55,283 nt of DNA from IMG/VR virus record IMGVR_UViG_3300027736_000059, positions 1-55,283 of that record; one strand, 5' to 3'. The notes below the pieces were generated by a model. That model was given only the letters and a program-made list of their open reading frames with translations. It was not told the origin of the DNA and searched no databases. This document shows positions 1,930 to 49,419 of this stretch, piece after piece. The position numbers and the translations under genes are program-made. The stretch's first letter is position 1. The number at the start of each line of letters is the position of its first letter. This DNA is from a virus. Lineage: Duplodnaviria; Caudoviricetes.

Positions 1930-2247
1930 ATGCAAGCGATTCCTGATAAAGTTAACATTTTTGGTAGGGAATATACTATAACTGTTAAAGAGCTGTTAGA
2001 TGGCTCCACAGACAAAGAAGAAACTTTAGGGCAGTGCTTGAATGACAAGCTTATTATAGAGATAAAGAAAGAGCAACATCCTTTATTAGAAGCAGATACC
2101 TTATTGCATGAGATAATCCATGCACTAGATGAGGTTATGCAAACAAGGATGTCAGAGAGACAAGTATGCTGTATAGCTACTGGTCTTATAGGAGTATTGA
2201 AAACTAATACAGAGTTCAATGAGTATTTATATAGGATGACTAGATAA
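1930..2247 (+). CDS. Small HEXXH zinc metallopeptidase-like protein
   Basis: LGQC...TLLHEIIHAL...E motif. Confidence 0.65.
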   Translation: MQAIPDKVNIFGREYTITVKELLDGSTDKEETLGQCLNDKLIIEIKKEQHPLLEADTLLHEIIHALDEVMQTRMSERQVCCIATGLIGVLKTNTEFNEYLYRMTR

Positions 2248-4580
2248 TGAGAGAAACCTTCACAGAGCAGCAGCGAGAGATTGTAGCCCGTAAGATGGGC
2301 TATGATGGCCCTATGCAAATGTTTGATGAGTATCTGGCATCTACTCCTTCAGACGCTAATAGATACTCAGCTATTACTTCTAAGTATGCTGTCAAGATGG
2401 CAGAGGGTGGTGTTGTTAAAATGGCAACGGGTGGGGTTGCTGATGCAACAGGCTCTGATGCCATCCCCGTTGCACCAACAGCAACAACAGCAACTGCTGC
2501 TCAAACAGCTACACCCACTGCTGTAACTTTTACAAAAGGCGATACAATAAAAGATGTAACAGCAACGGCTATCAAAGAAGCGGATATAAAGAAAGCCGAT
2601 ATTCCCACTTCTATAACTGCTACATCTATAACACCCGATACATCACAAACTACTCTACAGACAGCACTTGACAAAGCTAAAGAAGCCGAAGGCAAGCTTA
2701 GTTCAGAATCTAAGACAACTGCTGCTGTTGGTACTTTATCAGCGGGGTCTGTTGCTGCAACACAAAAAGTAGATGAAAAATATAAGACCCCTGTAACCGC
2801 TCAAACACGAACCACGGGCGCTGGTGAACTTGTGGAGGCTCAAACCACTGCTCCTAAAGTGACAGCGGAAGCTGCACAAACGGCAGCGCCTACAAAAGTA
2901 GAAGCAGCCCAAGGGGTTGTACAGACTAACCAACTTGTACAAGCTGCACAGATCAAAGAAGCCGATATGGCACAGTCAAAAGCCCTTGCCGCTGAGGGAT
3001 TGGCTGCTGATGCTAGAGTTGTTGCTGCTAAGATGGCAGCATTCACTGTAGATGATGGGACACTAGCACAAGCAGCACAGGGTAATGTTAATGCGTTGTC
3101 TACAGTACAGGGACAACTATCCTCATTGATGAAGAGCTTTGACGATGGCTCTACTCCTGCGTGGGCTAGTGGTGCTATTAGAGCCGCTAACGCTGCAATG
3201 GCTTCTAGGGGTCTTGGTAATAGTTCTATGGCTAGTGTAGCTGTGTTTCAAGCAGCTATGGAAAGCGCCTTACCAATTGCTTCACAAGACGCTAAGGTGT
3301 TTGAGTCAATGAATATGCAGAACTTAAACAACCGACAACAGGTTGCTTTAACTAATGCTGCTGCTCAACAGGGTCTGTCTCTACAGAATTTATCTAACGA
3401 ACAACAAGCAAGACTTACTAACGCAGCTAACTCTTTTGCTTTGCAAAGTCAAAACATAAGTAATACTCAACAGACAATGTTGGCTAATACTCAAATTAGA
3501 GCAGCACTACAAGGTCAAAACTTAAGCAATAATCAGCAAGCTGCTGTGCTTAACGCTGCTCGTTATGCTGAGCAAGCCAATATTAATTTGAATAACGTGC
3601 AACAGGCTGCCCTACATAACAGCACAATGCAAGTACAAGTTGAGATGGCTAATACTTCTAACAGGCAACAGGCTGCTTTGGCTAATGCACAAATTGAAGC
3701 AGCTATGCAGGGTAAGATATTAGATAATAAACAGCAAGCTGCTGTGCTTAATTCTGCTCGTATTGCAGAAAATGCTAGCCTTACGTTCACTGCTGCTCAA
3801 AATACAGCACTGCACAATTCTGAAATAATGAAGAGTATTGGACTGGCTGAACTTAGCTCTTCACAGGCTACTACTATTGCTAATGCCGCCGCTTCTGCAT
3901 CTCTTGATTTAGCTAATCTAAATAATCTTCAACAAGCAAACGTATTAACTTCTAAATCTTTCTTAGAAATTGATATGAAGAATTTAGATAATAAGCAACA
4001 AATGTCTGTGTTAAAAACACAGTCTATTACACAGGCTATTCTTAGTGACACAGCAGCAGCGAATGCTGCTAAGGCTGTTAATGCTTCTAATGCTTTAGAA
4101 GCTGACAAGGTTAATGCTACTCTTGCTCTCCAAGCTTCTCAGTACAATGCCTCTGAACAGAATAGAATTACGCTAGCTAACAATGCTGCTGTTAATGACA
4201 TAGCTAAATTTAATGCTAACGAAACAAATAGAAGAGAAGATTTTAATTCTCAGCTTGGAGTACAGATTAACCTAGCCAATGCTAAAATATTAGCTGATGT
4301 TTCTACTGCCAACACAAGAGAATCTAATGCAATTAATGCAGTGAATGCAAAGAATGCTACAGACCTGTCTGCCTCTACATATTCTCAACAGTCTCAGACA
4401 TATAGAGACTTATTAGAGCTTTCATATAAAGCAGGAGAGAATGATAAGGATAGATTGACACAGCTAGCCACATCTACAATTGCGGCTAATGCTAGTAAGA
4501 CAGCGGCTGAAATTAAAGCAGATGCTGATGCTTCTGTTAGTTGGGGTCAACTGGCTTGGAAAATCTTTCAAACCTTCTGA
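2247..4580 (+). CDS. Internal virion/ejection protein (A/Q/N-rich repeats)
   Basis: 777 aa with NxQQAxLxN repeats, RGLGNSSMA motif and MAEGG/MATGG motifs; position in the late arm. Confidence 0.65.
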   Translation: MRETFTEQQREIVARKMGYDGPMQMFDEYLASTPSDANRYSAITSKYAVKMAEGGVVKMATGGVADATGSDAIPVAPTATTATAAQTATPTAVTFTKGDTIKDVTATAIKEADIKKADIPTSITATSITPDTSQTTLQTALDKAKEAEGKLSSESKTTAAVGTLSAGSVAATQKVDEKYKTPVTAQTRTTGAGELVEAQTTAPKVTAEAAQTAAPTKVEAAQGVVQTNQLVQAAQIKEADMAQSKALAAEGLAADARVVAAKMAAFTVDDGTLAQAAQGNVNALSTVQGQLSSLMKSFDDGSTPAWASGAIRAANAAMASRGLGNSSMASVAVFQAAMESALPIASQDAKVFESMNMQNLNNRQQVALTNAAAQQGLSLQNLSNEQQARLTNAANSFALQSQNISNTQQTMLANTQIRAALQGQNLSNNQQAAVLNAARYAEQANINLNNVQQAALHNSTMQVQVEMANTSNRQQAALANAQIEAAMQGKILDNKQQAAVLNSARIAENASLTFTAAQNTALHNSEIMKSIGLAELSSSQATTIANAAASASLDLANLNNLQQANVLTSKSFLEIDMKNLDNKQQMSVLKTQSITQAILSDTAAANAAKAVNASNALEADKVNATLALQASQYNASEQNRITLANNAAVNDIAKFNANETNRREDFNSQLGVQINLANAKILADVSTANTRESNAINAVNAKNATDLSASTYSQQSQTYRDLLELSYKAGENDKDRLTQLATSTIAANASKTAAEIKADADASVSWGQLAWKIFQTF

Positions 4581-9800: not shown

Positions 9801-12583
9801 AAGCCTCAGCAACTGGCGAAGATGTGGCACAAAAGAAAGTAAGTACATTCTTTGGTGAGTGGGCTGGTCAATACTTCGGTAGAGCGCTCATCCCTCTTCA
9901 GCAATTGAGTGACATCATTGGTGCTGTTGATAGAAACGAAACTCTTCCCCGTTCTGTTTATGAAATCAAGCAAGGAGAAGAAGGCTTTATTCCCTCTGCA
10001 AAGAATGTGCTGATGTCAAAAGTTCCTGTGTTGAAGCAGGAACTACCAGTAGCACAGCCGGTCACAAAGACTGAAGCTTCCTTCAATGATGCTGGCTTAC
10101 TGAAGATGTTTGCTGGTATATCAATTAAGGTTAACCCAACTGACTTCGAGAAAGAGATAACTCGCCTCAATGTTCCTTACAACAAACTATTCACCACCAC
10201 AGGTGATAAGGTTGTTGACAGACAGGCTAAGGAAATTCTTGCTCCACAATTGGTAGCTTCTTATGAGGCTTTAACAAGCACTGACTTCTATAAGAACACC
10301 AACAAAGACCTACAGAAGATATCGCTGGAGAACACACTTGCTGGTGTGCAGAAAGAAGCTAAGGCTGTTGCCGTAGATATGGCTAGAGCAAAAGCCATAG
10401 AAGGTGGCTTAGGGGCTGCTCGTGTTATAGAGAATAGATATGCAGCCAAACCCGCTGAAGTGAAGCGTCAGGCCGCTGCTCTGTACAAACAAAATACAGG
10501 CAAAGACCTTACTGAGACTGGGGATTATGAGGCCGGGTTAGCTTATGCTACGGCGGTACAGAACATCCTTAAGCCAACAACAGGTAAGGCTAATGGCGGT
10601 GTAGTGGGTTATGCTGGTGGCGGTCTTCTAGCTAAGAAGGTAGCTGGAGAAACTATAGAGCGTGGACTAACCAAGATTGGTGGTGACCTGTTACAGCAGA
10701 TGGATAACATGCTAGGCAAGAAAGTTGGCACGGAAATTGAAGAGACTGCTGCTGCCCTCAAGGCAACAAAAGAAACTTCTTTGGGTAAGAGTATGGTAGA
10801 ACCCGTCGAATCTATTACATCTACTAAGCGTCCTGTCTTTCGGCCTACATCTACTTCAAAGGTTGTTAAAGACGAAGGGCCATACTTAGGTGATGTTGAG
10901 AGAGAGGGACGTTTTGTAGACGCTCCTGAGCCCAATTTTACTAAACAAGAAGAGCAGGTTATTTCTGCCTCTCAAACATCCTTTTTAGAAGATTTAAAAA
11001 ATAAACTTAATAGTAAAGATACTTCTTATGGTAAGCAGAAGATGCTGCAAAGCATAATTAAAGTCGGCACTGAAGAAGAGAAAAAATGGGCTGCTTCTGA
11101 ACTTGCTGATTTGGCTGATAAACAATTTGATTTGTGGACAAAATATAAAGACGAAGGATATGATGTAGGGGAGTTTATTCCTGAGAAACCTTTCTATTGG
11201 GGTAACCCTGAGAAACAGGAGTATGATAAGAATCCTTTTTCATTTGCCCCAAAGCCGGTGAAAGATAAAGAAGGAAGAGCCATACCGGATTCTTTAATTA
11301 CCACTCTCCCTGAATCTAAAGTTGCTCAAGGAGACTTGGACGCTACATCTTTTGCAAGACAAGGCCCAAGCGTTAGAAAGCAAGTGCTTGCTACTATACG
11401 CCAAGCTAGGACAGATTCCTTTGATGCAATAACTAATCTGCCTAAGGTTAAGGAACTGCCGGATGCTGAGGATGTTATCGCGGTGGTGCAGGGTGATTTC
11501 CGTATCAAAGAAGGAAGAGAAATAAATCCGTCTAAAGCTGAAGACATTAGCATTGTCCAAGACATGGCTACTAAAGCACAGAAGAAACTGGATGCACTGA
11601 GAGAAGAATACAAAGATACTCCACCAGTAAAACTCTATCACGGCAAAGCTGCATATGCGGCTGAGCCTACTACTAGATATAAGACAGGCTTCTTAGACCC
11701 ACAACAGATAGATAAATATCACAGTGAAATGGAAGTGGGTGGTACATCGTTCACTAGGGATTTGAATTTAAACTTTGAGTCTCCTGTTTTTGGTGGGCCT
11801 AATGCAGATAAGATTGTCTACACAGAAATGCCATACGCTGACTACATGTTTAAGAGAATTAACATGGCTCCCACAGCGTATGATAATAAAAACTTAAATG
11901 TTATTGCTCAGTCTATCAACGGGTCTGATAGAGTTGTACGTCCCGTCAGTCTTCCGAGGTCTTCTAACTTTAAGGAAACAGAAGACATGATTACAGAGAC
12001 GGACAAGCTTCGTCCTGAAGGCAAGGGTACAGGTAATCAATTGGAAGTTAGATCAGCAGCTAACGATGTTACTCTTGCTGCTGCCAATCCTGAGAAAGTA
12101 TCTTTGCTTGGTAAAGGTGGAGATAAGAAGGGATTCATTAATCGTGTAAGAGAAGAAACAAATATCAAGGATAGGATTATCAACTTGAGTTCTGACCTCC
12201 ATACAGAGAAGAGTGGTGTTGCTGCCAATAAGATATATAAAGAGATAAGGAATCTCTTTAATAATTATATGGAGAAAGCTGATATCACTTCAACTAAAGC
12301 TGGCATGGGTCAGAGATATCACAGTGAACTATCTAATAACCTAAATATACTTAAAGGAACAGACAGTTCTATTCTCACCAAAAACCTACTGAGTACAACA
12401 AGCGATATCTTGGAGAAGCAGGGTTCTAAAGAGAAGGCTATGTTGCTACGTTCTTTGAGTAAAGAGTTAAAAGTATTAGGGGAAAACTGGGCTAGTGACG
12501 CTGCTGGTCAAGTTAAGAATGTCAACAATATCAGAGAGCTAACCCAGAAGCTAGCCAAGGGTGGACTAGTAGAAAGAAGATAA
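6845..12583 (+). CDS. Giant internal virion/ejection protein (1912 aa) with a possible C-terminal ART-like domain
   Basis: Last gene of the late arm. FDDLIP repeats at the N-terminus, PFPRF motif, LYHG...SFTRD...E in the C-terminal third. Confidence 0.65.
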   Translation: MAYDISFDDLIPSNQKTKDVSFDDLIPKKSTSLVTRPDQQTKDKEALSILQKEKEKASVALAEAQRLKDKAREDRAAADVLSLDREIAATSKRASVATAEPVAVEPTLPARDKQVRTPSLYDIKAAPVETKAAEVAPAAPAPTPTTDESKVSAAFSYKSKLAEGFKPRAEAMKEKVEQTRLAEENKIPFDALTQSPALKKTIDDYVLARFGKSELQKPNESVEDYVNRFAQQMRFLKTGNTYSLGSEIQFLNSAKQEDKLKMDAAYTLWDNIADPSMMTAGGKGQKGIRPVTDSLLSMFSDPLTFVSLGAGKMLATPIQKAVAEQGIKKALVSNIGKVAAIPAIETAQGVASDTGQQKIELTIAAAQLKNAEDRFPSLSPEEQDKLKPTLDLLRKKVEEGINIKQAVISGVVSGVLGSVEAAGVLKAGKKLGGGQSSLDEILARKKAGLPEAPAPKLEVKASTGTQKQLEDDYDIFEGRNLLDKQLINLDGLSGMEYEKAFAKNESAVAQMQVRKEINRKATQLAQEVWTSLPEFAPKQGEKISDAVKNVFLNIDSVDDVALKDAFAKANITPEEFARMNRTTVSDAASTMQSYSVLARIQNKLKSIDPAAAKEVDLMYGNRNAITDSFGFIKDISMRADRELKALMVSQIATTVRNAYSGLTVVTFGVASEAVESALYRIGKTSAEIYTGKPVTGSFTNGIKGVWNDAFRTASYLSDAGLSADVAERLLAGSPTLSSLILKTAGEAGDQGLSRVGQIANTFNVAQDAFFRRAIFAANVEKQLSRVGIDMFDVLAQNKNIPLDVLKNATNEALLATFSKMPTKGPVYHAVKFIEELGPVGSTLIPFPRFMANAMEWTATHSPIGLVSGAVDVASTDLNKRIAGLEKLSKGIVGTGAIYAAYKYRKDNQDTEWYDAKNTDGSLVDTRAFFPVAPFLALGDYLVKLENGTTSEFKAKELFEAVTGFKMPAGTNSWLGDQFATAASNWQASATGEDVAQKKVSTFFGEWAGQYFGRALIPLQQLSDIIGAVDRNETLPRSVYEIKQGEEGFIPSAKNVLMSKVPVLKQELPVAQPVTKTEASFNDAGLLKMFAGISIKVNPTDFEKEITRLNVPYNKLFTTTGDKVVDRQAKEILAPQLVASYEALTSTDFYKNTNKDLQKISLENTLAGVQKEAKAVAVDMARAKAIEGGLGAARVIENRYAAKPAEVKRQAAALYKQNTGKDLTETGDYEAGLAYATAVQNILKPTTGKANGGVVGYAGGGLLAKKVAGETIERGLTKIGGDLLQQMDNMLGKKVGTEIEETAAALKATKETSLGKSMVEPVESITSTKRPVFRPTSTSKVVKDEGPYLGDVEREGRFVDAPEPNFTKQEEQVISASQTSFLEDLKNKLNSKDTSYGKQKMLQSIIKVGTEEEKKWAASELADLADKQFDLWTKYKDEGYDVGEFIPEKPFYWGNPEKQEYDKNPFSFAPKPVKDKEGRAIPDSLITTLPESKVAQGDLDATSFARQGPSVRKQVLATIRQARTDSFDAITNLPKVKELPDAEDVIAVVQGDFRIKEGREINPSKAEDISIVQDMATKAQKKLDALREEYKDTPPVKLYHGKAAYAAEPTTRYKTGFLDPQQIDKYHSEMEVGGTSFTRDLNLNFESPVFGGPNADKIVYTEMPYADYMFKRINMAPTAYDNKNLNVIAQSINGSDRVVRPVSLPRSSNFKETEDMITETDKLRPEGKGTGNQLEVRSAANDVTLAAANPEKVSLLGKGGDKKGFINRVREETNIKDRIINLSSDLHTEKSGVAANKIYKEIRNLFNNYMEKADITSTKAGMGQRYHSELSNNLNILKGTDSSILTKNLLSTTSDILEKQGSKEKAMLLRSLSKELKVLGENWASDAAGQVKNVNNIRELTQKLAKGGLVERR

Positions 12584-35773: not shown

Positions 35774-36061
35774 ATGGCAACAGCAGCAGAAAAAGTAGCG
35801 ATGTATAGAGAGAAGGCTAAAGACACTACCCTTCCTCAAGATGTACGCAATGCCTATTTGGATAAGGCTACAGAGCTTGAATACAAAGCATACGAAGAAA
35901 CGAAGGCTGGAACCACCAAGTCTTCTACTCCCCCACAACCAGCTAAGATGGCTGTAGGTGGAGCAGTGAAACCTCGTTGGTTAAAACCAATGAAGATGGC
36001 TACAGGTGGTTATGTTAATTGTGGAGCTTCGGTTCCTCCTGCTCAGAAAGGCAAAAAATAA
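35774..36061 (+). CDS. Small protein with two MAxGG motifs
   Basis: AAGGA SD; KMAVGG, KMATGG, NCGASVPP. Confidence 0.7.
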   Translation: MATAAEKVAMYREKAKDTTLPQDVRNAYLDKATELEYKAYEETKAGTTKSSTPPQPAKMAVGGAVKPRWLKPMKMATGGYVNCGASVPPAQKGKK

Positions 36062-36062
36062 A

Positions 36063-36305
36063 ATGGCTACTAAGAAAATTGTTCAAGGTAAAGAGACGTA
36101 TGCTTCCAAGGCTGCGATGATGAAGCATGAGAAAAGCGAGCCTCTAAAGAAACAAATGAAAGAAGACATGGCTATGATGGCTAAGGGTGGTGCTGTCAAG
36201 AAGAGTGCTAAGACTCCTGCTGTTGCCATTGTAATCGGCATGGGCAAGCCTAAGGGCAAGATGATGATGAACAAAGGTGGTATGGCTAAAGGAAAGAAAT
36301 GCTAA
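36063..36305 (+). CDS. Small Lys/Met-rich basic protein with MAKGG/MNKGG motifs
   Basis: YASKAAMMKHEKSE; start reassigned to MATKK. Confidence 0.7.
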   Translation: MATKKIVQGKETYASKAAMMKHEKSEPLKKQMKEDMAMMAKGGAVKKSAKTPAVAIVIGMGKPKGKMMMNKGGMAKGKKC

Positions 36306-38076: not shown

Positions 38077-39493
38077 TATCGTTGTTCCCACTTCCACACA
38101 GAATGTAATCTTCAAGCCCAATGATGGGCCTCAGACATTCTTCCTATCTGCTTCTGAAAGAGAAGTGCTATATGGTGGAGCCGCTGGCGGTGGCAAGAGT
38201 TATGCCATGTTGGCAGACCCTCTTCGCTACTTAGCCCATCCACAATTCTCTGGATTGCTGCTACGCCACACAACAGAAGAGCTTCGTGAGCTTATCTGGA
38301 AAAGCCAAGAAATATATCCCAAGATTTATCCCAACATCAAGTGGAGTGAGAGGAAGATGCAGTGGGTAGCACCGTCTGGGGCTAGGCTTTGGATGTCCTA
38401 CCTAGACAGAGACGAGGATGTGCTGAGATATCAGGGATTAGCCTTTAGCTGGATAGGCTTTGATGAGCTTACGCAGTGGCATACCCCCTTTGCTTGGAAT
38501 TATATGCGCTCACGGCTGCGTACTCCAGCAGCAGACCTCCCAATTTACATGAGAGCCACCACAAATCCGGGTGGCCCCGGTCATGCTTGGGTTAAAAAGA
38601 TGTTTATTGACCCAGCACCAGCAGGAAAACCCTTCTGGGCTACAGATATTGAGACTGCAACTGTATTAAGCTACCCAAAAGGACACACTAAAGAGGGTCA
38701 ACCCCTGTTTAAACGCCGTTTTGTACCTGCTATGCTGTCTGATAACCCATATTTGGCTGAGACAGGCGACTACGAGACGATGTTGTTGTCCCTTCCTGAG
38801 CATCAACGCAAGCAATTGCTAGAAGGAAACTGGGATATTGCAGAGGGAGCAGCCTTTTCTGAGTTTAATAGGGCCATACATGTGGTAGAACCCTTTGACA
38901 TCCCAAGTAATTGGGTAAAGTTTAGGTCATGCGACTATGGATATGGTAGTCATAGTGCTGTTGTTTGGTTTGCTGTTACTCCAAGTGAGCAAATTATCAT
39001 CTATCGTGAGTTATATGTATCAAAGGTGTTGGCAAAAGACTTGGCTCACATGGTATTGAAGGCAGAACAGAACGATGGCACTATAAGATACGGAGTATTG
39101 GATAGCAGTTGCTGGCATAAGCGTGGAGATACTGGCCCTTCCCTAGCAGAACAGATGATTATGGAGGGATGCCGCTGGCGACCTTCGGATAGAAGTGCTG
39201 GTAGTAGGGTTGCAGGTAAGAATGAGATGCATAGAAGGTTGCAGGTTGACCCATTTACAGAAATGCCAAGAATGGTTATAACTAGTAACTGCGTAAATAC
39301 AATAGCTCAGCTTCCTATTATTCCTTTGGATAAAAAGAATCCTGAGGATATAGATACAAAGACGGAAGATCACTTATATGATGCAATTCGCTATGGCATT
39401 ATGAGCCGTCCTAGAAGTAGTTTGTTTGATTATAATCCAGCAAACAGTAAACAGTATGGGATGAAAGTAGCTGACCCAGTTTTTGGTTATTGA
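37904..39493 (+). CDS. terL: Terminase large subunit
   Basis: YGGAAGGGKS Walker A, FDELTQ Walker B, TTNPGG, nuclease DYG and DHLYDAIRY; start uncertain. Confidence 0.93.
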   Translation: MNSRTGENLQLTASLPSGTKKRLGRPKNTKKESEPKEASLSPIILETSLPPSEPAISNIVVPTSTQNVIFKPNDGPQTFFLSASEREVLYGGAAGGGKSYAMLADPLRYLAHPQFSGLLLRHTTEELRELIWKSQEIYPKIYPNIKWSERKMQWVAPSGARLWMSYLDRDEDVLRYQGLAFSWIGFDELTQWHTPFAWNYMRSRLRTPAADLPIYMRATTNPGGPGHAWVKKMFIDPAPAGKPFWATDIETATVLSYPKGHTKEGQPLFKRRFVPAMLSDNPYLAETGDYETMLLSLPEHQRKQLLEGNWDIAEGAAFSEFNRAIHVVEPFDIPSNWVKFRSCDYGYGSHSAVVWFAVTPSEQIIIYRELYVSKVLAKDLAHMVLKAEQNDGTIRYGVLDSSCWHKRGDTGPSLAEQMIMEGCRWRPSDRSAGSRVAGKNEMHRRLQVDPFTEMPRMVITSNCVNTIAQLPIIPLDKKNPEDIDTKTEDHLYDAIRYGIMSRPRSSLFDYNPANSKQYGMKVADPVFGY

Positions 39494-39507
39494 TATTAAG
39501 GAATAAT

Positions 39508-41607
39508 ATGGTAGAGAAGCAAAAAGCGCTGGGAGATAAAACCTTAGCCCTAGATGATATTAAATCTGTAGAAGATTCAGAAGCTACTGGTGGCGGTATT
39601 ATTGCTTATGTGCAAGAACGCTTTACTAGGTCTGAGACAAGTAGAAAGCAAGACGAGACAAGATGGCTCCGCGCCTATCGCAATTATCGTGGTATCTATG
39701 GAACTGATGTACAGTTTACAGAACATGAGAAGTCTCGTGTATTCATTAAAGTAACCAAGACAAAAACTCTAGCTGCCTACGGTCAAATCATTGAGGTATT
39801 ATTTTCCAACAACAAGTTTCCTCTTAGCGTAGACCCTACTGTTCTTCCTGATGGTGTGGTTGAGAGTGTACACTTTGACCCTAACGACAAGACCCCACCT
39901 GTTCCAAAGAAGAAAACAGAGATTCCTTTTGGTGATAGTGGTAGTGAGGCTATTCCTAGTGGGTTCTCATTAGATGATCTAGAAGAAATGCTAGGCTCTA
40001 TGAAGGATGAACTCAAAGACATCCCCAATCTAAAAGAAGGGCCGGGGGTTACTCCTTCATCCGTCACCTTTAGTCCTGCTATGGTGGCAGCTAAGAAGAT
40101 GGAGAAGAAAATCCATGACCAGTTAGATGAGACAGGAGCTTCTAAGCATCTACGTTCTACTGCTTTTGAAATGGCTCTGTTTGGAACGGGCGTTATGAAA
40201 GGCCCATTTGCTGTCAACAAAGAATATGCTAGCTGGGATGGGGATGGTAAATATAAACCAACAATTAAAACTGTACCAGAAGCATCACATGTTTCTATCT
40301 GGAACTTCTATTGGGATGCAGACGCTAACAACACAGAAGATTGCCAGTATGTTATTGAGCGGCACAAGATGTCGCGTACTCAGCTTAGAGCGCTAAAGAA
40401 ACGTCCGCATTTTAGAGCCAATGTAATTGACCAAATCATTGAAGAAGGTGAAGGCTACGTTAAGAGATATTGGGAAGACGATCTAAAAGATTATGCTCCC
40501 ACCTTTGGCGTTGAGCGCTTTGAAGTTTTGGAATATTGGGGTAATGTAGATATTGATTTGTTGGAGGAGAATGACGTAGTTATTCCTGAAGACATGAAAG
40601 AAGCTGGTGAACTACAAGCTAATATCTGGTATTGCAACGGTAAGATTCTTCGTCTTGTTTTGAATCCTTTCAAGCCAGCGCGTATTCCTTACTACGCTGT
40701 TCCTTATGAACTCAATCCCTACTCCTTAGCTGGCGTTGGTATTGGTGAGAACATGGATGATACGCAGACACTGATGAATGGCTTCATGCGTATGGCTGTT
40801 GATAATGCTGTGCTGTCTGGTAATCTCATCTTTGAAATTGATGAAACTAATCTTGTCCCCGGTCAAGACCTATCTGTGTACCCCGGCAAAGTGTTCCGCA
40901 GACAAGGGGGCGCTCCGGGTCAGTCGCTGTTTGGAACTAAGTTTCCAAATGTTTCCAATGAGAACCTACAACTATTTGATAAAGCTAGACAACTAGCAGA
41001 TGAGTCCACAGGACTTCCATCATTCTCTCATGGTCAGACAGGCGTATCTGGAGTAGGAAGAACTGCCAGCGGTATCAGCATGTTGATGAATGCTGCTAGC
41101 GGCAATATCAAAACAGTCATTAAGAATGTGGATGATTATTTGCTTGCTCCTTTGGGTGAGGCTTTCTTTAACTTCAATATGCAGTTTGACTATGATCCTG
41201 AGATTAAGGGAGACTTGGAAGTAACGGCTAAGGGAACAGAAAGCTTGATGGCTAATGAAGTTAGAAGCCAGCGATTGATGCAGTTCTTGCAGATTGCTAG
41301 CCAGCCTTCACTTGCTCCGTTTGCTAAATTCCCTTACATCATCCGTGAAATTGCAAAGAGCATGGACTTAGACCCCGACAGAGTTACCAACAACATGGAC
41401 GAGGCTATGAAGCAAGCGTTCTTAGCTCAGCAGAATGCACCTCCTGCACCTCCTGCTGCACCAGCCGGTGCTGCTCCACAGGGCGCTCCCCCGCAAGGCG
41501 TAGCTGGCCCTCCTAGCGTGGCAGACATGAGTGGTGGTGGCGGTGGCAACATTGGTGTTGGCGCTGCTCCTGCGCCCGGAGAACAAGGATTTAGCGGCAA
41601 TGTCTGA
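39508..41607 (+). CDS. Portal protein
   Basis: Follows TerL; FGTGVMKGPF, GxGIxENM, RTASGISML, Pro/Gly-rich tail; start reassigned (AAGGA SD). Confidence 0.88.
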   Translation: MVEKQKALGDKTLALDDIKSVEDSEATGGGIIAYVQERFTRSETSRKQDETRWLRAYRNYRGIYGTDVQFTEHEKSRVFIKVTKTKTLAAYGQIIEVLFSNNKFPLSVDPTVLPDGVVESVHFDPNDKTPPVPKKKTEIPFGDSGSEAIPSGFSLDDLEEMLGSMKDELKDIPNLKEGPGVTPSSVTFSPAMVAAKKMEKKIHDQLDETGASKHLRSTAFEMALFGTGVMKGPFAVNKEYASWDGDGKYKPTIKTVPEASHVSIWNFYWDADANNTEDCQYVIERHKMSRTQLRALKKRPHFRANVIDQIIEEGEGYVKRYWEDDLKDYAPTFGVERFEVLEYWGNVDIDLLEENDVVIPEDMKEAGELQANIWYCNGKILRLVLNPFKPARIPYYAVPYELNPYSLAGVGIGENMDDTQTLMNGFMRMAVDNAVLSGNLIFEIDETNLVPGQDLSVYPGKVFRRQGGAPGQSLFGTKFPNVSNENLQLFDKARQLADESTGLPSFSHGQTGVSGVGRTASGISMLMNAASGNIKTVIKNVDDYLLAPLGEAFFNFNMQFDYDPEIKGDLEVTAKGTESLMANEVRSQRLMQFLQIASQPSLAPFAKFPYIIREIAKSMDLDPDRVTNNMDEAMKQAFLAQQNAPPAPPAAPAGAAPQGAPPQGVAGPPSVADMSGGGGGNIGVGAAPAPGEQGFSGNV

Positions 41608-41815
41608 TAAGTCTTATCTACCCAAGTTAAAAGGACTGGTTGCAAACAACAATCAATGGGAGGGCTTTTGTGAAATGCTTCAATTTAATATTGAACAGCA
41701 ACAACGAAAGCTTGAACAAGCAACTGAACTCCGAGAAATACATCAAGCTCAGGGAGCTATAACTATGCTGCGTCAAATGAAATATCTCAAGGAAGAAATA
41801 AATGCCCACAAATAA
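41600..41815 (+). CDS. Small coiled-coil head-associated protein
   Basis: LEQA....IxxAQGAIxxLRxxKxLKEE; located after the portal gene. Confidence 0.65.
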   Translation: MSDKSYLPKLKGLVANNNQWEGFCEMLQFNIEQQQRKLEQATELREIHQAQGAITMLRQMKYLKEEINAHK

Positions 41816-44036
41816 TCTGTTAGCTACTGGTGGAATGAAACAACAAGGTGGAACAGTAGACCCTGTTAGCGGTAACGCTGTTCCTGTAGGTTCTCTACAA
41901 AATGAAGTTAGAGACGATGTAGATTCAAAGCTTAGTAATGGTGAGTTTGTTTTCCCTGCTGATGTTACACGCTACATTGGTCTAGATAAGCTTATGCAAA
42001 TCCGTGAAGCAGCCAAGCAAGGACTACAGAAAATGGATAGCATGGGACAGATGGGAAATTCTGAGGAAGTTGTTGGAGACGGAAATAGCGAAGATCAATT
42101 CTCTTCTCACATTGATGACATTATTGCCACTGTTGATGGGAAAGAAGGAGTAAAGAAATTTGCTGGTGGTGGTGGAGTAAATACAACTTCATATAGTGGA
42201 GCGCCTTTGCAGGGATTTTCAATGGAGCTATACGAAGACCCCAAAACAAAAGTAACAAGATACATTCCTTTCCTTAATGGTAAAGCCTTGCTTCCTGTTC
42301 CCTCTGGGTATATAAAGAAAGATGTTTCTGCTCCAGCAACAGACACTACAACGACTACCACTACTCCAGCAACAGCCGTAGATACCACAGGGAAAACAGG
42401 CGGTGGTGGTGGAACAAGTAGGGATGGTACTGATACTACTGGTGGAATAGGTGGCACAGGTGGAGGAACTACTCCTGAAGGATTTGGTGGAATACAAAGC
42501 GGAACAAGTTCAACTATTGGAAAATTTACAGGTCTTCTTCCCGGCCCTCTTGGACTCTTAGCCGCCGCCGCTGTTAAAGTTTATACTAAAATAAATAATG
42601 AACAAGCAGCAGCGGCAAATGCTAAAGCAGTAGACGCTTCTGCTTTATCCTCCATGGGATTTAGTGCCGCGTCTGTAAAAGCTGCACAAGAAGCAGCAGC
42701 TAAGGCAACTCTTGAGGGTAAGTCTGCTAAAGATATTGCAGTTGCAGCAGCTAATGCAGCCTCTGTAGGTGTAGCTACTGGAGCACCAAAAGATTCGTTA
42801 GATGCTTTGATGGGAATTACCAATGCATTTAATACAATGACGAATACACAAGCTCAAGAAAATGCTACAGAGACTTCTGTAAACACTAGTCTTGCTGCTG
42901 CCGGTCTTGAGGGGCAAGTGCCAGCAGGTATGTGGGGCGTAGTTGTTAGCGGAATTCAAGATGGGCTTACTGCACAACAAGCTGTAGATAAGGCTATTCA
43001 AGTTGCTGATACAGCAGTTAATAAAGACGCAGCATTAGCGAATATAGCAGAAGCAACTAAAGAAGCCGTAACTGCTCAAGATACAGCAGATAACAAAGAC
43101 GCAGCAGCAGCTAATATGGCAGCAGCAATTCAAGCAGCCATCAACGCTCAAAATGCTCAGGATACAGCACCTTTATCCTTATCTCAAGTATCAGTAACTT
43201 CGGATGCTTCCATAAGTGATGGTGGTACTGATGGAATTGGTGGCGGCGTTGGCTCTGGTGGTTATAGTGGCCCAGCTTCTGGCGCAACATCCGCAGGTTC
43301 TGCCCCCGGCCCAAGCGCAGGTTCGGCTGCTGGCCCTGCTAGTGGTGGAGAAGGTGGCGATGGCGGTGGCTCTGCTGCTGGTAGCGCAGCCCGTGGAGGT
43401 ATAGGCTTTGGTGGAACTGGTAGCGGTGTAGGTGGTGATGGTGGTGACGGCGGTGGGGGCGGCAATACAGGCCGTGGTGGCGGCGAAGGCGGCGGTGGTG
43501 CTGGCGCTGGTGCTGGGGGCGGTGGTGATGGAGGTGGTGCTGGGGGCGGTGGTGATGGAGGTGGAGGAAACGGCCCAACATGCTTTGTTAAAGGCTCCTT
43601 AGTAACACTTGCTGATGGAAGAAGAATAGCTATTGAAGATGTTGCTGTCGGAGACTTTGTTCTTGGACAGGGCGGCTCTAATGAAGTTGTAGCCTATGAT
43701 CGTCCGCAGTTGATTATCCCAGATGTCCGTAATGGCACTCTTTATGGCATTAACGGCTCTAAGAAATTCATTACTTCAGAACATCCCGTGATGACTAAGG
43801 ATGGCTGGAAAGCTATTGACCAAGAGAACGCTAAGAAGTTTGAGCCTCATCTGAGTAAGATTTTAGTTGGTAGTCTGATAGTTGGTGATCTCCTTGTCAA
43901 AGAAGGTGGAGAACTTATGCTAGTTACTAGCATAGATAAATACACTGATCAGCCTCAACAGCAACTATATAACTTGATGCTCAACGGTGATCATACATAT
44001 TATGTAAATGAAATGCTTGTTCACAATAAAGACTAA
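41802..44036 (+). CDS. Virion-associated protein: N-terminal LSxGEFV domain, Ala/Gly-rich linker, C-terminal Hint domain
   Basis: RDDVDSKLSNGEFVFPADV; Hint block A CFVKGSLV, block B TSEHP, LYNL...YYVNxxLVHN followed by KD-stop. Confidence 0.8.
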   Translation: MPTNNLLATGGMKQQGGTVDPVSGNAVPVGSLQNEVRDDVDSKLSNGEFVFPADVTRYIGLDKLMQIREAAKQGLQKMDSMGQMGNSEEVVGDGNSEDQFSSHIDDIIATVDGKEGVKKFAGGGGVNTTSYSGAPLQGFSMELYEDPKTKVTRYIPFLNGKALLPVPSGYIKKDVSAPATDTTTTTTTPATAVDTTGKTGGGGGTSRDGTDTTGGIGGTGGGTTPEGFGGIQSGTSSTIGKFTGLLPGPLGLLAAAAVKVYTKINNEQAAAANAKAVDASALSSMGFSAASVKAAQEAAAKATLEGKSAKDIAVAAANAASVGVATGAPKDSLDALMGITNAFNTMTNTQAQENATETSVNTSLAAAGLEGQVPAGMWGVVVSGIQDGLTAQQAVDKAIQVADTAVNKDAALANIAEATKEAVTAQDTADNKDAAAANMAAAIQAAINAQNAQDTAPLSLSQVSVTSDASISDGGTDGIGGGVGSGGYSGPASGATSAGSAPGPSAGSAAGPASGGEGGDGGGSAAGSAARGGIGFGGTGSGVGGDGGDGGGGGNTGRGGGEGGGGAGAGAGGGGDGGGAGGGGDGGGGNGPTCFVKGSLVTLADGRRIAIEDVAVGDFVLGQGGSNEVVAYDRPQLIIPDVRNGTLYGINGSKKFITSEHPVMTKDGWKAIDQENAKKFEPHLSKILVGSLIVGDLLVKEGGELMLVTSIDKYTDQPQQQLYNLMLNGDHTYYVNEMLVHNKD

Positions 44037-44170: not shown

Positions 44171-45028
44171 ATGACAGAAGCAGTGATGGAAAAACAAGAA
44201 CAGAAGACAGCATTTGCTAGCCGCAATGCTAATGACGAAAGAATTAAAAAAGAAGAAGACGAACTAAAAGATTTAATTAATCTAAACACAGAAGGAAAAC
44301 CGGCCTCAGTTAACCCAGAAGACGATAGCAACTTAAATGCAGAGGAAAAAACATTTAAGAAACGCTATGGCGATTTAAGAAGTCATTCCCAAAAGCAGCA
44401 AATTCAACTTCAGAAAGAGATTGATGAGCTTCGGGAACAGCTACAGAAGAGTACCAGCAATCAGATTAAACTCCCTACCAGCGATGAAGACCTAGCTGCT
44501 TGGGCTAATGAGTATCCTGATGTTGCCCGTATTGTAGAAACAATTGCAATCAAAAAAGCCAAAGAACAATCAGCAGAACTAGACCAGCGCTTTAAAGCTC
44601 TGGACGATAGGGAGCAGGAGACTGCCAGAGAAAAGGCAGAGGCTGAGTTGCTTCGTATGCATCCCGACTTTGAGAATATCAAAGACAGTGATGAGTTTCA
44701 CAATTGGGTGGAAGAGCAGCCTAAGTGGGTACAGAACGCTTTGTATGAGAATGACACAGACGCTAAAGCAGCATCCCGTGCCATTGATTTGTACAAGGCA
44801 GATAAGGGAATTGGTAAACCAAAGAAGGCAGATAATCGAAGTGCAGCCGAAAGTGTCTCCACTAGAAGCAGCCGTTCTGCTCCTTCTGGTCAGGACATGG
44901 ACGGGGTTATTTATGAATCCCAAGTTAATTCCATGACATCCCATCAGTATGAAGCTAACCAAGAAGCCATCTCAAAGGCTATTAAATCTGGTAAGTTTGT
45001 ATACGATCTAAGTGGCAACGCACGTTAA
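44171..45028 (+). CDS. Capsid scaffolding protein
   Basis: FKKRYGDLR, HPDF, FxxWVxxQP, AIDLYK; acidic coiled coil directly upstream of the capsid gene. Confidence 0.8.
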   Translation: MTEAVMEKQEQKTAFASRNANDERIKKEEDELKDLINLNTEGKPASVNPEDDSNLNAEEKTFKKRYGDLRSHSQKQQIQLQKEIDELREQLQKSTSNQIKLPTSDEDLAAWANEYPDVARIVETIAIKKAKEQSAELDQRFKALDDREQETAREKAEAELLRMHPDFENIKDSDEFHNWVEEQPKWVQNALYENDTDAKAASRAIDLYKADKGIGKPKKADNRSAAESVSTRSSRSAPSGQDMDGVIYESQVNSMTSHQYEANQEAISKAIKSGKFVYDLSGNAR

Positions 45029-45291: not shown

Positions 45292-46362
45292 ATGGCATTT
45301 CCCAAGGCAACGGGTTACGGCAATTTACCTAATGGTAATTTTAGTCCAGTAATCTATTCCAAGCAAGTACAACTTGCATTCCGTAAGGCTTCCACTGTTG
45401 AAGCCGTGACCAACAACGACTATTTTGGCGAGATTGCCAACATGGGCGATTCGGTTAAGATCATCAAAGAGCCTGAAGTTAGCGTTCAGTCGTATGCTCG
45501 TGGTACACAAATCACTGCACAAGACCTGAATGATGAGGACTTCACACTTGTTGTCGATCAGGCTAACTACTATGCCTTCAAGATTGATGACATTGAAGCC
45601 GCTCACTCCCATGTAAATTTCATGCAAATGGCTTCTGATCGCGCTGCTTATCGCATCCGTGACCAGTATGACCAAGACGTTTTGGGTTACATGTCTGGCT
45701 ATCAGCAATCCGCTAAGCATGCTCAAGCAGGTACAGCCCGTACTACCTACCCCGGTACTAAGGCATTGACTGAAGCTGGCTCCAACGAATTGCTGTCCAC
45801 CATGCAATTGAAGAAGAGTGACTTTGGTAACATTACTACCGCCTCCGCTGGTGACCATTCCATTCCTTTGGCTGCTCGTCTGCCGGGTGCTACCGCACTG
45901 CCCACGGCTACGGCTTCTCCTCTGATGGTGATTTCCCGTATGAGCCGTTTGCTAGACCAACAGTTCGTTGACACTAGCGGACGCTGGTTGGTGATTGACC
46001 CCATCTTCATGGAACTGTTGAAAGACGAAGACAGCCGCTTGCTTAACAGCTTGTTCGGTGGTTCTGGTCTGCAAAACGGTTTGGTAGTGGACAACCTGCA
46101 CGGCTTCAAAGTGTATGTGTCTAACAACCTGCCTAAGGTTGGTACAGGCGCTGGCACTACAGGTACGGCTAACCAGAACACCAACTTCGGTGTTATCGTT
46201 GCCGGTCACCAGTCTGCTATTGCTACCGCTCAGCAGATCACCAAGACAGAAACCTATCGTGACCCAGATAGCTTTGCTGACATCGTGCGTGGTATGCATC
46301 TCTATGGTCGCAAAATCTTGCGTCCTGAGGGCATCGTCACTGCTAAGTATAACGCTGCTTAA
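45292..46362 (+). CDS. Major capsid protein
   Basis: GNFSPVIYSK, TNxDYFGEI, GDSVKI, FxIDDIE, DSFADIVRGMHLYGRKILRPE; strong AGGAG SD and biased codon usage. Confidence 0.92.
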   Translation: MAFPKATGYGNLPNGNFSPVIYSKQVQLAFRKASTVEAVTNNDYFGEIANMGDSVKIIKEPEVSVQSYARGTQITAQDLNDEDFTLVVDQANYYAFKIDDIEAAHSHVNFMQMASDRAAYRIRDQYDQDVLGYMSGYQQSAKHAQAGTARTTYPGTKALTEAGSNELLSTMQLKKSDFGNITTASAGDHSIPLAARLPGATALPTATASPLMVISRMSRLLDQQFVDTSGRWLVIDPIFMELLKDEDSRLLNSLFGGSGLQNGLVVDNLHGFKVYVSNNLPKVGTGAGTTGTANQNTNFGVIVAGHQSAIATAQQITKTETYRDPDSFADIVRGMHLYGRKILRPEGIVTAKYNAA

Positions 46363-48689: not shown

Positions 48690-49418
48690 ATGGCCTACAA
48701 TTTTTTAGATTTAGTTAATGAAGTTAATAGAGCGCTCAACGAAGTCGAATTAACTTCAACTACTTTTCCAAACGCCGTTGGTTTCTATGCTAAGGTTAAA
48801 GACTCAGTTAACACAGCAATCAGAGATATCAACCATACTCACTATGAGTGGCCCTTTAACCATGTATTAGCAGAAGAAACATTAACTGCGGGTACTATTA
48901 GATATGCTTATCCAACAGATGCAAATACTTTAGATTTTGATTCATTCCGTATTAGAGAAGACGCTACACTAGGAAACAGAACAGTAAAGCTGTCTTCTAT
49001 TTCCTATGAAGATTATCTAGATAGATTTATTGATCACGAGTATACAACCGAAACAAATAAACGAACTCTACCTACTTATGTATTTCAATCTCCTAGCTTA
49101 GAGTTTGGTGTTGTTCCTGCCCCTGATCAGGCTTATGAAGTGCTGTATGAGTATTATAGAATTCCTGTAGACTTAGCAAGCTATAGCGATGTTCCTGATA
49201 TTCCAGAAAGATTTAGACATGTCATTGTAGATGGGGCCATGTTCTACGCTTATATGTTCAGAGGTAATGAGCAGTCTGCTGGTATATCAAAACAGAAATA
49301 TGATGAAGGTGTTAAGAGAATGCGTAGTATGCTTGTTAACCGTTATGGATATGTACGTTCTGGAATGATTACTCCTGCCAGTGGTTCAGTAAGATCGTTT
49401 GGTGACAGGGTTAAATAA
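48690..49418 (+). CDS. Tail tubular protein A / head-tail adaptor
   Basis: LxLVNxVxxxLNEV, WPF, PxPDxAY, IPERFxxVIVDGA; start reassigned. Confidence 0.75.
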   Translation: MAYNFLDLVNEVNRALNEVELTSTTFPNAVGFYAKVKDSVNTAIRDINHTHYEWPFNHVLAEETLTAGTIRYAYPTDANTLDFDSFRIREDATLGNRTVKLSSISYEDYLDRFIDHEYTTETNKRTLPTYVFQSPSLEFGVVPAPDQAYEVLYEYYRIPVDLASYSDVPDIPERFRHVIVDGAMFYAYMFRGNEQSAGISKQKYDEGVKRMRSMLVNRYGYVRSGMITPASGSVRSFGDRVK

Positions 49419-49419
49419 T

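What the first reader, a model, noticed from the sequence alone, without database searches (positions are those of the whole stretch)
41802..42180. Candidate virion-protein processing system: shared [MFYL]-A-x-G-G motif and a tape-measure-like GEFV domain at the prohead-protease position
Seen: the motif recurs, usually in pairs, in five late proteins: MAEGG/MATGG (2397-2435); KANGG/YAGGG and terminal LAKGG (giant protein); MAVGG/MATGG (35774 ORF); MAKGG/MNKGG (36063 ORF); LATGG/FAGGG (this protein). I noticed none in the replication proteins. Here the pair brackets a compact domain, RDDVDSKLSNGEFVFPADVTRYIGLDKL. From memory, this resembles the FAxGG...GEFV...IG..L...YAxGG segment near the C-terminus of siphovirus tape measure proteins such as lambda gpH, which is cleaved during assembly. 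This podovirus has no tape measure and no recognisable HK97/T4-type head protease, and the gene sits between portal and scaffold. Inference: the GEFV domain is an unrecognised protease or receptor that reads AxGG tags to load and mature ejection and core proteins.
Basis: partly seen in the sequence, partly recalled or inferred. Interest (0 to 1): 0.88.

Follow-up and report, generated by a model that had tools for sequence, protein, structure and literature searches.

The report
Tape-measure-like module in podophage virion protein
The gene after the portal of this HMO-2011-type podophage starts with a conserved, unnamed module that also sits near the end of lambda-like tape measure proteins and ends in a self-cleaving Hint domain; it looks like a packaged, ejected carrier protein, not a protease.

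Summary
The [MFYL]-A-x-G-G motif is at every stated place. It occurs 9 times in the window against 2.0 expected (0 of 1000 shuffles). It flanks the GEFV core in most relatives: upstream in 189 of 256, downstream in 188 of 231. Lambda gpH carries the same layout, FATGG..GEFVF..IG..L..YATGG.

The link to tape measure proteins (TMPs) is probable but weak:
- For: four TMP PHROG families match (18, 10, 5 and 2 of 21 members). hhalign gives 83.7% against at most 6.2% in 61 controls.
- Against: plain HMM searches in both directions are not significant.

The protease or tag-receptor inference is not supported. Residues invariant in podophages are changed or deleted in TMPs. AlphaFold2 gives no compact fold (pLDDT 58).

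- A C-terminal bacterial-intein-like Hint domain (residues 594-742).
- Variable payloads fused to the module in relatives: an ADP-ribosyltransferase, HNH, a transglycosylase.

The gene order portal, this gene, scaffold-like gene is fixed (62 of 62 and 59 of 61 loci).

Best reading (about 0.5): a packaged, ejected, TMP-like carrier protein. Motif enrichment is lineage-specific. Homology of the tags in other proteins could not be shown.

The parts
41802..44036 (+). Whole gene, 744 aa: N-terminal GEFV module, low-complexity middle, C-terminal Hint domain
   Evidence: ORF list. Identical protein P0151 in the collection. Relatives in HMO-2011, CRP phages and MW202701.
41820..41852 (+). Upstream flank: LATGG (residues 7-11) followed by a second GG (QQGG, 14-17). 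Aligns with FATGGFTGTGG of lambda gpH.
   Evidence: G10, G11, G16 and G17 are nearly invariant in 68 sequences. hhalign columns 5-68 against 16-60.
41940..42035 (+). GEFVF core (residues 47-51) plus amphipathic helix PADVTRYIGLDKLMQIREAAKQGLQKM (52-78)
   Evidence: Invariant G47, E48, F49, A53, D54, V55, R57, G60, L61, M65, R68, A71, K72. AlphaFold2 helices at 53-59 and 61-82/83 are the only part with pLDDT 70-80.
42159..42173 (+). Downstream flank FAGGG (residues 120-124)
   Evidence: A strict motif lies within 130 aa downstream of the core in 188 of 231 relatives long enough to show it.
42261..42311 (+). Second small conserved stretch, YIPFLNGKALLPVPSGY (residues 154-170), shared with MW202701, HMO-2011 and CRP-1 homologues
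   Evidence: Read from the sequences printed; coordinates. Not tested statistically.
42357..43580 (+). Low-complexity middle: Thr/Gly-rich region, moderately hydrophobic stretch 42525-42581, Ala-rich region (28% Ala), Gly-rich region (49% Gly)
   Evidence: Composition and Kyte-Doolittle scan. Highest 19-residue mean 1.49, against 1.59 for the best stretch of gpH.
43581..44027 (+). Hint / bacterial-intein-like domain, residues 594-742: Cys594, TSEH at 658-661, terminal His741-Asn742, then Lys-Asp-stop
   Evidence: Five Hint-type Pfam families match, all below the curated cut-off. PDB 2lwy 'bacterial intein-like domain' matches at E 3e-5 over the full length. Coordinates.
2397..2435 (+). Tandem MAEGGVVKMATGG in the 777-aa late protein (2247-4580)
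   Evidence: The motif is kept in homologues: HMO-2011 MAKGG at 52; MW202701 MAKGG at 49 and YAAGG at 58; CRP-1 MAEGG at 497.
10586..10624 (+). KANGGVVGYAGGG inside the 1912-aa protein (6845-12583)
   Evidence: Not a second copy of the module: hhalign 7.9%.
12551..12580 (+). C-terminal LAKGGLVERR of the 1912-aa protein
   Evidence: The MW202701 homologue has FNKGGL near its end; the HMO-2011 and CRP-1 homologues have none.
35948..36010 (+). MAVGG and MATGG in the 95-aa basic protein (35774-36061)
   Evidence: The MW202701 homologue carries MAKGG twice.
36177..36281 (+). MAKGG and MNKGG in the 80-aa basic protein (36063-36305)
39490..41607 (+). Portal protein (context)
   Evidence: Pfam SU10_portal, E 3.8e-24.
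41600..41815 (+). Small helical ORF between the portal and the GEFV gene, overlapping the latter by 14 bases (context)
   Evidence: BLASTP relatives at the same place in 26 of 80 related loci (counted from the output).
44171..45028 (+). Scaffold-like protein (context; assigned by position and composition only)
   Evidence: PHROG 13678, function unknown. Follows the GEFV gene in 59 of 61 loci.
45292..46362 (+). Major capsid protein (context)
   Evidence: Pfam Phage_capsid_4. 79.8% DNA identity to the annotated capsid gene of MW202701.

Best explanation
The gene encodes the conserved portal-adjacent virion protein of HMO-2011-type podophages.

Its first ~125-175 residues form an unnamed module: hydrophobic-A-x-G-G, a second GG, the GEFVF strand, an amphipathic helix, an acidic linker, and hydrophobic-A-x-G-G again. 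The same layout, in shorter form, lies in the C-terminal fragment of lambda-type tape measure proteins (TMPs). That fragment, gpHC, is unresolved in structures between about residues 690 and 817.

I read the module as a non-enzymatic assembly or anchoring element. It places the protein at the portal or DNA-exit end of the particle and carries whatever is fused to it out of the capsid ahead of, or with, the DNA. On this reading the AxGG motifs are first of all integral flanks of the module. Further copies in other late proteins are a lineage-specific elaboration.

In this phage the cargo is a TMP-like Ala/Gly-rich region and a C-terminal bacterial-intein-like Hint domain. The Hint domain should cut itself away from the rest, by N-terminal cleavage at Cys594 and Asn742 cyclisation.

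Shown: the architecture, its conservation, the synteny, the resemblance to TMPs, the Hint signature and the variable fusions.

Inferred: presence in the virion, ejection, anchoring, and actual self-cleavage.
For: - **Conservation.** The module is very widespread: 2776 cluster representatives at E<=1e-3. Thirty-three positions are invariant in 68 sequences.
- **Synteny.** In related IMG/VR loci a portal gene lies within 3 ORFs upstream in 62 of 62 loci with room for one. A scaffold-like gene lies downstream in 59 of 61.
- **Variable length and position.** The protein ranges from 120 to 1258 aa, with the core at residue 47 to 673. Minimal forms of 177-186 aa hold little beyond the module and a basic tail.
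- **Payloads fused to the module in relatives.**
  - ART-PolyVal, above the Pfam cut-off.
  - HNH, above the cut-off, in 2 of 10 long relatives scanned.
  - Transglycosylase or endolysin PHROGs in 1 of 8 scanned.
  - Hint in the window's own lineage.
- **Precedent.** ART-PolyVal is known from proteins proposed to be packaged in capsids and injected. MuF/gp7 carriers are described as head components fused to effector domains in phages that use the portal-terminase packaging system (PMC5512222, passages read).
- **Link to TMPs.**
  - gpH has FATGG..GEFVF..IG..L..YATGG.
  - BLASTP E 0.005.
  - All four named PHROG families hit by 21 family members are TMPs: 18, 10, 5 and 2 members.
  - hhalign 83.7%, score 35.2. 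Controls: 10.4 for the reversed alignment, at most 14.7 in 30 column shuffles, at most 20.4 in 30 block shuffles.
  - In 9 TMPs the strict motif flanks the core upstream in 7 and downstream in 8 (read from the alignment).
  - The 58-residue gpH segment is found in 1014 phage records; of the 50 records listed, those with a named product under the match were annotated as tape measure or tail proteins.
- **Hint domain.** PDB 2lwy E 3e-5 over its full length, plus Cys1, TxxH and a His-Asn end.
Against: - No virion proteomics or structure for any HMO-2011-type phage was found in the papers searched. Packaging and ejection are therefore inferred.
- Plain profile-to-sequence searches do not confirm the link to TMPs:
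  - The podophage profile found nothing in 5 of 5 siphophage genomes. The tool warns that an empty answer there shows nothing.
  - It found nothing related in the PDB sequences.
  - In local hmmsearch it gave E 0.85-4.1 for TMP fragments and did not list lambda.
  - The 9-TMP HMM did not list the window's protein at E<=10.
- The 21 PHROG-matching members are 53-62% identical to the window protein, so they are not independent.
- The window's own protein has no recognised lytic or effector payload and no convincing membrane segment.
- The slot after the portal would suit an assembly factor that never leaves the cell or the capsid equally well.
Confidence: 0.5

Rival explanations
1. Tag-based cargo loading read by something other than the GEFV segment. 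The hydrophobic-A-K-G-G-hydrophobic motif with a basic tail is a short C-terminal or N-terminal loading signal. It docks internal proteins onto the portal, the scaffold, the capsid interior or the packaged DNA. The GEFV protein is one tagged client among several.
For: - 43 of 68 3'-complete GEFV ORFs in related loci end in xAKGG-hydrophobic plus a Lys/Arg-rich tail; 24 of 263 collection relatives do so by the strict motif.
- One relative (P0062) has the Hint domain inserted just before such a tail, and P0118 has the tail without Hint.
- The window's 1912-aa protein and two small basic proteins end in similar strings.
- Motif density is 4.11 per 1000 aa in GEFV ORFs against 0.29 in 697 neighbouring ORFs.
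- The motif is enriched in the window and in MW202701.
Against: - An HMM built from 33 distinct family tails finds none of the window's tagged proteins at E<=10 among 559 six-frame segments.
- The homologues of the giant protein in HMO-2011 and CRP-1 have no tail tag.
- Enrichment is absent in HMO-2011 and CRP-1.
- TMPs carry the motif although they are not capsid cargo.
Confidence: 0.15
2. A structural or assembly protein of the portal vertex that is not ejected, for example a portal-bound assembly factor or plug. The fused domains are incidental.
For: - Fixed position between the portal and the scaffold-like gene.
- Very high conservation of about 70 residues, including many charged ones, suggests a fixed partner surface.
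- Minimal forms of about 180 aa carry no payload.
Against: - Enzyme domains (ADP-ribosyltransferase, HNH, transglycosylase) fused to the module make most sense if delivered to the host.
- The resemblance to TMPs points to a protein that leaves through the channel.
Confidence: 0.15
3. One reading: the GEFV segment is a protease or receptor that recognises AxGG tags and matures ejection and core proteins by cutting at AxG/G.
For: - The motif is enriched and paired.
- Many invariant Asp, Ser, Glu and Lys residues lie in the podophage module.
- Lambda gpH is cut in the glycine-rich region near its C terminus, ahead of its module; the authors state that the precise cleavage site is unknown (PMC12617516, passages read).
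- No S78 match was found, and S49 gave only a sub-threshold match.
Against: - The invariant polar residues are not shared with TMPs.
- The conserved part is about 70 residues with one confident helix and no predicted globular fold.
- Lambda has the module but no other tagged proteins.
- There is no match to any peptidase family in Pfam or NCBIfam.
Confidence: 0.07
4. The motif copies outside the module are chance or compositional by-products of Gly- and Ala-rich late proteins.
For: - The motif was defined after it was seen.
- The loose form is not enriched in the window: 18 against 13.2 expected, with 135 of 1000 shuffles reaching 18.
- The strict form is not enriched in HMO-2011, CRP-1, lambda or T7.
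Against: - Within-protein shuffles keep composition and still give 0 of 1000 for the window and 1 of 1000 for MW202701.
- Motifs recur at the same places in homologues of the 777-aa protein and of the small basic protein.
Confidence: 0.05

Closest known systems
C-terminal fragment (gpHC) of the lambda tape measure protein gpH, and the same segment in Drexlerviridae, N15 and other siphophage TMPs
   Same: Colinear hydrophobic-A-x-G-G, second GG, GEFVF, x-x-[DE], I-G, L, then hydrophobic-A-x-G-G. Gly-rich and hydrophobic low-complexity sequence lies nearby. Function and structure are unknown in both: lambda residues ~690-817 are unresolved, and only residues 921-956 of the T1 TMP are resolved (passages read in PMC12617516, PMC10721106 and PMC11945409).
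   Different: - The window protein has no TMP_2 or Tape_meas_lam_C domain.
- It is encoded in the head module of a podophage.
- Its module is at the N-terminus and carries a ~19-residue insertion (the SGNxVPxG and EVRDD blocks) and a long helix that TMPs lack.
MuF / SPP1 gp7 minor head proteins and phage 'polyvalent proteins' (Iyer et al. 2017, PMC5512222)
   Same: A conserved head-associated carrier part fused to variable enzyme domains, as that paper describes for MuF. Some relatives carry the ART-PolyVal domain named in that work. That the SPP1 gp7 gene lies directly after the portal gene, as this gene does, is recalled, not read in a call.
   Different: No Phage_Mu_F match anywhere in the genome. 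The carrier here is a different, unnamed module.
Internal virion / ejection proteins of podophages (T7 gp14-16, P22 gp7/20/16)
   Same: Proposed role: packaged, leaves before the DNA. One relative carries a transglycosylase, as T7 gp16 does (the T7 annotation was seen).
   Different: No sequence relation was found. T7 has no motif enrichment: 1 against 0.96 expected, and none in virion proteins.
Bacterial intein-like (BIL, Hint) domains, e.g. PDB 2lwy
   Same: Cys1, TxxH and a terminal His-Asn, with a full-length alignment at E 3e-5.
   Different: It sits at the very end of a phage virion-module protein. The residue after Asn is Lys, followed by only Asp and the stop codon. Classical splicing is therefore not expected; cleavage is. 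That some BIL domains ligate without a +1 nucleophile is recalled, not read here.

Membership tests
Tape measure protein (lambda gpH type) | TMP_2 (PF06791) and/or Tape_meas_lam_C (PF09718) domains | tested here: not met
   gpH matches both. The window protein matches neither at E<=0.1 for the whole protein or E<=1 for the module.
Tape measure protein (lambda gpH type) | Encoded between the tail chaperone and distal tail genes of a long-tailed phage | tested here: not met
   The gene lies between the portal and a scaffold-like gene in a podophage-type genome.
Tape measure protein (lambda gpH type) | C-terminal AxGG-GEFV-AxGG segment | tested here: met
   Plain HMM searches are not significant, so this is a probable, not a proven, shared module.
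Tape measure protein (lambda gpH type) | Sets tail length | not testable with these tools
   Needs genetics. A podophage has no long tail to measure.
Prohead protease (S78 HK97 type, S77 T4 type, S49 lambda gpC type) | Peptidase domain match | tested here: not met
   S78: no match, and the control rang in 4 genomes. S77: no match, but the control was silent, so the search is uninformative. S49: only 15.4 bits at 5309-5581, below the 24.9 cut-off, and not in this gene. No peptidase family matches the module.
Hint / bacterial intein-like domain | N-terminal Cys or Ser nucleophile, TxxH block, C-terminal His-Asn | tested here: met
   C594, TSEH at 658-661, H741-N742. PDB 2lwy E 3e-5. Each Pfam Hint family scores below its curated cut-off.
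Canonical intein | Cys, Ser or Thr at +1 of the C-extein, and a host protein restored by splicing | tested here: not met
   Position +1 is Lys743 and the protein ends two residues later.
MuF / SPP1 gp7 | Phage_Mu_F domain (PF04233) | tested here: not met
   No match in the genome; the control rang in 5 genomes.
Polyvalent / packaged effector proteins | Several effector domains in one polypeptide encoded beside packaging genes | tested here: inconclusive
   Relatives carry ART-PolyVal, HNH or a transglycosylase. The window's protein has only the Hint domain.

The most novel reading that the evidence does not exclude
The AxGG-GEFV-AxGG cassette is a self-contained maturation and loading device shared by siphophage tape measures and podophage internal proteins. 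The GEFV strand and helix would take up AxGG strands in cis or from other tagged proteins by strand exchange, and/or direct cleavage next to them. This could account for the cutting of lambda gpH into gpH* and gpHC, whose precise site is still unknown. It would also give HMO-2011-type capsids a tag-based way to co-load small basic proteins and giant ejection proteins. In some lineages a Hint domain would then replace or release the tag.
Probability: 0.1. Interest if true: 0.85.

Novelty: new variant of a known kind. Interest (0 to 1): 0.5.

Why it matters
HMO-2011-type phages are described as a dominant, broadly distributed marine group, and several of their ten core genes have no known function (PMC9038755, passages read).

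This work gives one conserved, unannotated gene of the group (hypothetical protein in HMO-2011 and CRP-1) an architecture and a testable role. It also ties that gene to the least understood part of the lambda tape measure protein: the cleaved C-terminal fragment, whose residues ~690-817 no structure resolves and whose cleavage site is unknown (PMC12617516). A module shared by proteins that leave long and short tails first would be a handle on how ejection proteins are held and released.

No Pfam or NCBIfam model covers the module. Pfam coverage of gpH ends at residue 701.

The variable enzyme fusions mark the family as a likely delivery vehicle for anti-host effectors.

Tried and rejected
- **Binding test.** Complex prediction with the module (alignment A2) and residues 48-95 of the 95-aa tagged protein gave no verdict: score 0.00, controls not run. 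I use it neither for nor against binding.
- **Second module copy in the giant protein.** The region around KANGGVVGYAGGG looked by eye like a degenerate second module. hhalign gives 7.9% against TMPs and 0.6% against the podophage family. Dropped.
- **Family tail HMM.** An HMM of 33 distinct family tails against the six-frame window found none of the tagged proteins. Its best hit in relatives was one MW202701 ORF at E 0.0021.
- **S49 peptidase lead.** The match at 5309-5581 scored 15.4 bits. It has E 0.14 against all of Pfam, is absent from three homologues, and has no PDB support. Treated as chance.
- **Profile searches.** The A1 profile against PDB sequences gave only chance-level hits. The A2 profile against five siphophage records found nothing. 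Narrow HMMs in both directions were not significant.
- **Tail by tblastn.** A 30-aa family tail against the phage collection gave no match.
- **Wasted search.** The search for homologous proteins on gpH residues 715-800 listed only E. coli, Shigella or unnamed proteins, 119 of the 120 shown 100% identical over the query, so it gave no diversity.
- **ESM Atlas.** The crAss cargo-protein lead scored 0.84, below the tool's own bar, and has no Pfam support. The TMP rows in its structure list have TM 0.27-0.41 and count only as a weak lead.
- **Structure search.** Fold search was not run, because both models have pLDDT below 60.
- **Literature.**
  - 'AxGG' with 'phage' gave 16 papers; none of the 15 listed looked relevant by title.
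  - 'GEFV' with 'tape measure' gave 0 papers.
  - Searches for virion proteomics of HMO-2011-type phages found none.
  - PMC12014285 studies other phages.
  - PMC4819975 mentions HMO-2011 only for its tubular tail B protein.
- **Closed sources.** Supplements were not opened.


Full report
**What is there.** The window is a 98%-complete virus record of the HMO-2011 type. tblastn of the first 126 residues of ORF 41802-44036 finds 14 phage records: HMO-2011 (two records), eleven Roseobacter CRP phages, and the freshwater genome MW202701. The ORF (744 aa) follows the portal (SU10_portal, E 3.8e-24) and precedes a scaffold-like gene and the capsid gene. The strict motif [MFYL]A.GG occurs 9 times in 77 called ORFs against 2.04 expected from within-protein shuffles, and 0 of 1000 shuffles reach 9. 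In 27 late proteins it occurs 8 times against 1.43 expected, with 2 of 5000 shuffles reaching 8. The motif was defined after it was seen. One copy lies in an early-side ORF, and ORF 36063 was not in my gene set.

**The family.** The first 126 residues match 2776 cluster representatives at E<=1e-3; the 150 listed are 52-89% identical. In 263 relatives from two searches, 256 have the core pattern G[ED][FYW][VIL]xP. A strict motif lies within 80 aa upstream in 189 of 256, and within 130 aa downstream in 188 of 231 that are long enough. The positions pile up at -60 to -21 and +60 to +99. The bracketing pair is therefore a feature of the module. An alignment of 68 sequences has 33 invariant positions between residues 20 and 86.

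In 80 IMG/VR loci a portal gene lies within three ORFs upstream in 62 of 62 loci with room for one. A scaffold-like gene lies downstream in 59 of 61. The protein ranges from 120 to 1258 aa, with the core anywhere from residue 47 to 673. Forms of 177-186 aa hold just the module, a linker and a basic tail.

**Relation to tape measure proteins (TMPs).** The evidence for a relation:
- BLASTP of the two proteins gives E 0.005 over the core.
- The four named PHROG families matched by 21 family members are all TMPs: 18, 10, 5 and 2 members, best E 1.5e-5.
- hhalign of 250 podophage segments against 9 TMP segments gives 83.7% and score 35.2 over 45 columns that include the first motif and the core.
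- The controls score far lower: 10.4 for the reversed TMP alignment, at most 14.7 for 30 column shuffles, and at most 20.4 (6.2%) for 30 five-column block shuffles.
- Seven of the 9 TMPs have the strict motif upstream and 8 of 9 downstream (read from the alignment).
- The 58-residue gpH segment occurs in 1014 of 50,697 phage records.

The evidence against:
- The podophage profile found nothing in five siphophage records (the tool says this shows nothing).
- It found nothing related in PDB sequences.
- Local HMM searches in both directions were not significant. Six of the top seven hits of the podophage HMM were TMP fragments, but at E 0.85-4.1.

I rate a shared module as probable (about 0.7), with homology more economical than convergence. 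No Pfam model covers it: Pfam coverage of gpH ends at residue 701. Papers on lambda and T1 resolve only the last helix of the TMP and leave lambda residues ~690-817 unseen, with the cleavage site unknown (passages read).

**Not a protease, and not shown to be a receptor.** The residues invariant in podophages are not kept in TMPs. S45 aligns with His, and the SGNxVPxG and EVRDD blocks fall in a 19-residue insertion that TMPs lack. What is common is Gly, Pro, GEFV, an acidic residue, I-G and Leu. Two AlphaFold2 runs, with 21 and 68 sequences, give mean pLDDT 58.7 and 57.7 and are confident only for the helix at about residues 53-82. No peptidase family matches. Lambda has the module but only two motifs in its genome, both inside gpH.

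**Tags elsewhere.** Motif density is 4.11 per 1000 aa in 79 GEFV ORFs against 0.29 in 697 neighbouring ORFs. Forty-three of 68 3'-complete GEFV ORFs end in xAKGG-hydrophobic plus a Lys/Arg-rich tail, often ...KRGIASKK. The window's giant protein and two small basic proteins end in similar strings. Homologues keep a motif at the same place in the 777-aa protein and in the small protein.

Four results count against a general tag system:
- Enrichment holds for the window and MW202701 (7 against 1.2 expected, 1 of 1000).
- It does not hold for HMO-2011, CRP-1, lambda or T7.
- The HMO-2011 and CRP-1 homologues of the giant protein lack the tail.
- The tail HMM does not retrieve the window's tagged proteins.

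Residues 594-742 are a Hint domain. Five Hint-type Pfam families match, each below its cut-off. PDB 2lwy, a bacterial intein-like domain, aligns end to end at E 3e-5. Cys594, TSEH and His-Asn are in place, followed by Lys-Asp-stop. In relative P0062 the same domain is followed by KDFAKGGLV and a basic tail, and P0118 has that tail without Hint. Other relatives carry ART-PolyVal ahead of the module, HNH (2 of 10 scanned) or a transglycosylase (1 of 8).

**How it most likely works.** The module is a non-enzymatic anchoring or assembly element at the DNA-exit end of the particle. The protein is packaged and leaves first, as a TMP does, carrying whatever is fused to it. Here the Hint domain cuts itself off.

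What is shown:
- The architecture, its conservation and the synteny.
- The resemblance to TMPs.
- The Hint signature.
- The variable fusions.

What is inferred:
- Presence in the virion.
- Ejection.
- The binding partner.
- Cleavage activity.

MuF/gp7 carriers and polyvalent proteins give the precedent (PMC5512222, passages read). No MuF domain is present.

**Verdict.** The feature is a new variant of a known kind of protein (ejected carrier or tape-measure-like), built on an unnamed module.

Noticed in passing
L006:31242-34226 (-), L007:38097-40244 (-), L004:38772-41060 (-): The homologues in MW202701, CRP-1 and HMO-2011 each end in a different ~100-130-aa domain that begins with Cys (after a Gly/Ser-rich linker in MW202701 and CRP-1): GCFLTTAAV..., SCYVATAL..., ICTELYKQG.... 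This echoes the Cys1 of the window's Hint domain. No Pfam match. CF[IL]TTA forms recur in 6 collection relatives.
   Followed up: partly
window 5309-5581 (+), in ORF 5303-6841: Weak Peptidase_S49 match: 15.4 bits against a cut-off of 24.9. It is not found in three homologues or in the PDB. Probably chance, but it is the only peptidase-like signal in the genome.
   Followed up: yes
window 41600-41815 (+): Small helical ORF between the portal and the GEFV gene, overlapping the latter by 14 bases. BLASTP relatives sit at the same place in 26 of 80 related loci. Its position recalls a chaperone gene ahead of a tape measure gene.
   Followed up: no
L005, HMO-2011 record 50628-50780 (-): A 50-aa ORF, not annotated in the record, with MMRGGM, MRGGGM and MMRGGM spaced 14 residues apart. 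The neighbouring gp67 has MAYGGM and YAAGGM.
   Followed up: no
window 41380-41607 (+), C-terminus of the portal: The portal ends in a Pro/Ala/Gly-rich low-complexity tail of about 70 residues (translation).
   Followed up: no
L099:18864-19130 (T7 gene 6.7): T7 gp6.7, annotated in the record as possibly injected from the virion, ends in ...SAFGGKK. This is loosely like the basic GG tails here, but it is not the strict motif.
   Followed up: no
P0123 (1070 aa, collection relative): A transglycosylase/endolysin-type region at residues 209-267 lies upstream of the module at 651-734.
   Followed up: partly
window 49399-51396 (+): The best PHROG hit is a family labelled 'amidase' (E 6e-45), matching the HMO-2011 gp44 annotation. 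PMC4819975 lists HMO-2011 gp44 in its table of tubular tail proteins, so the 'amidase' label is doubtful.
   Followed up: no
whole window: The window is 55,283 bases and the HMO-2011 genome is 55,282. The two are only about 63% identical in this protein's module, so the near-equal length is coincidence.
   Followed up: yes
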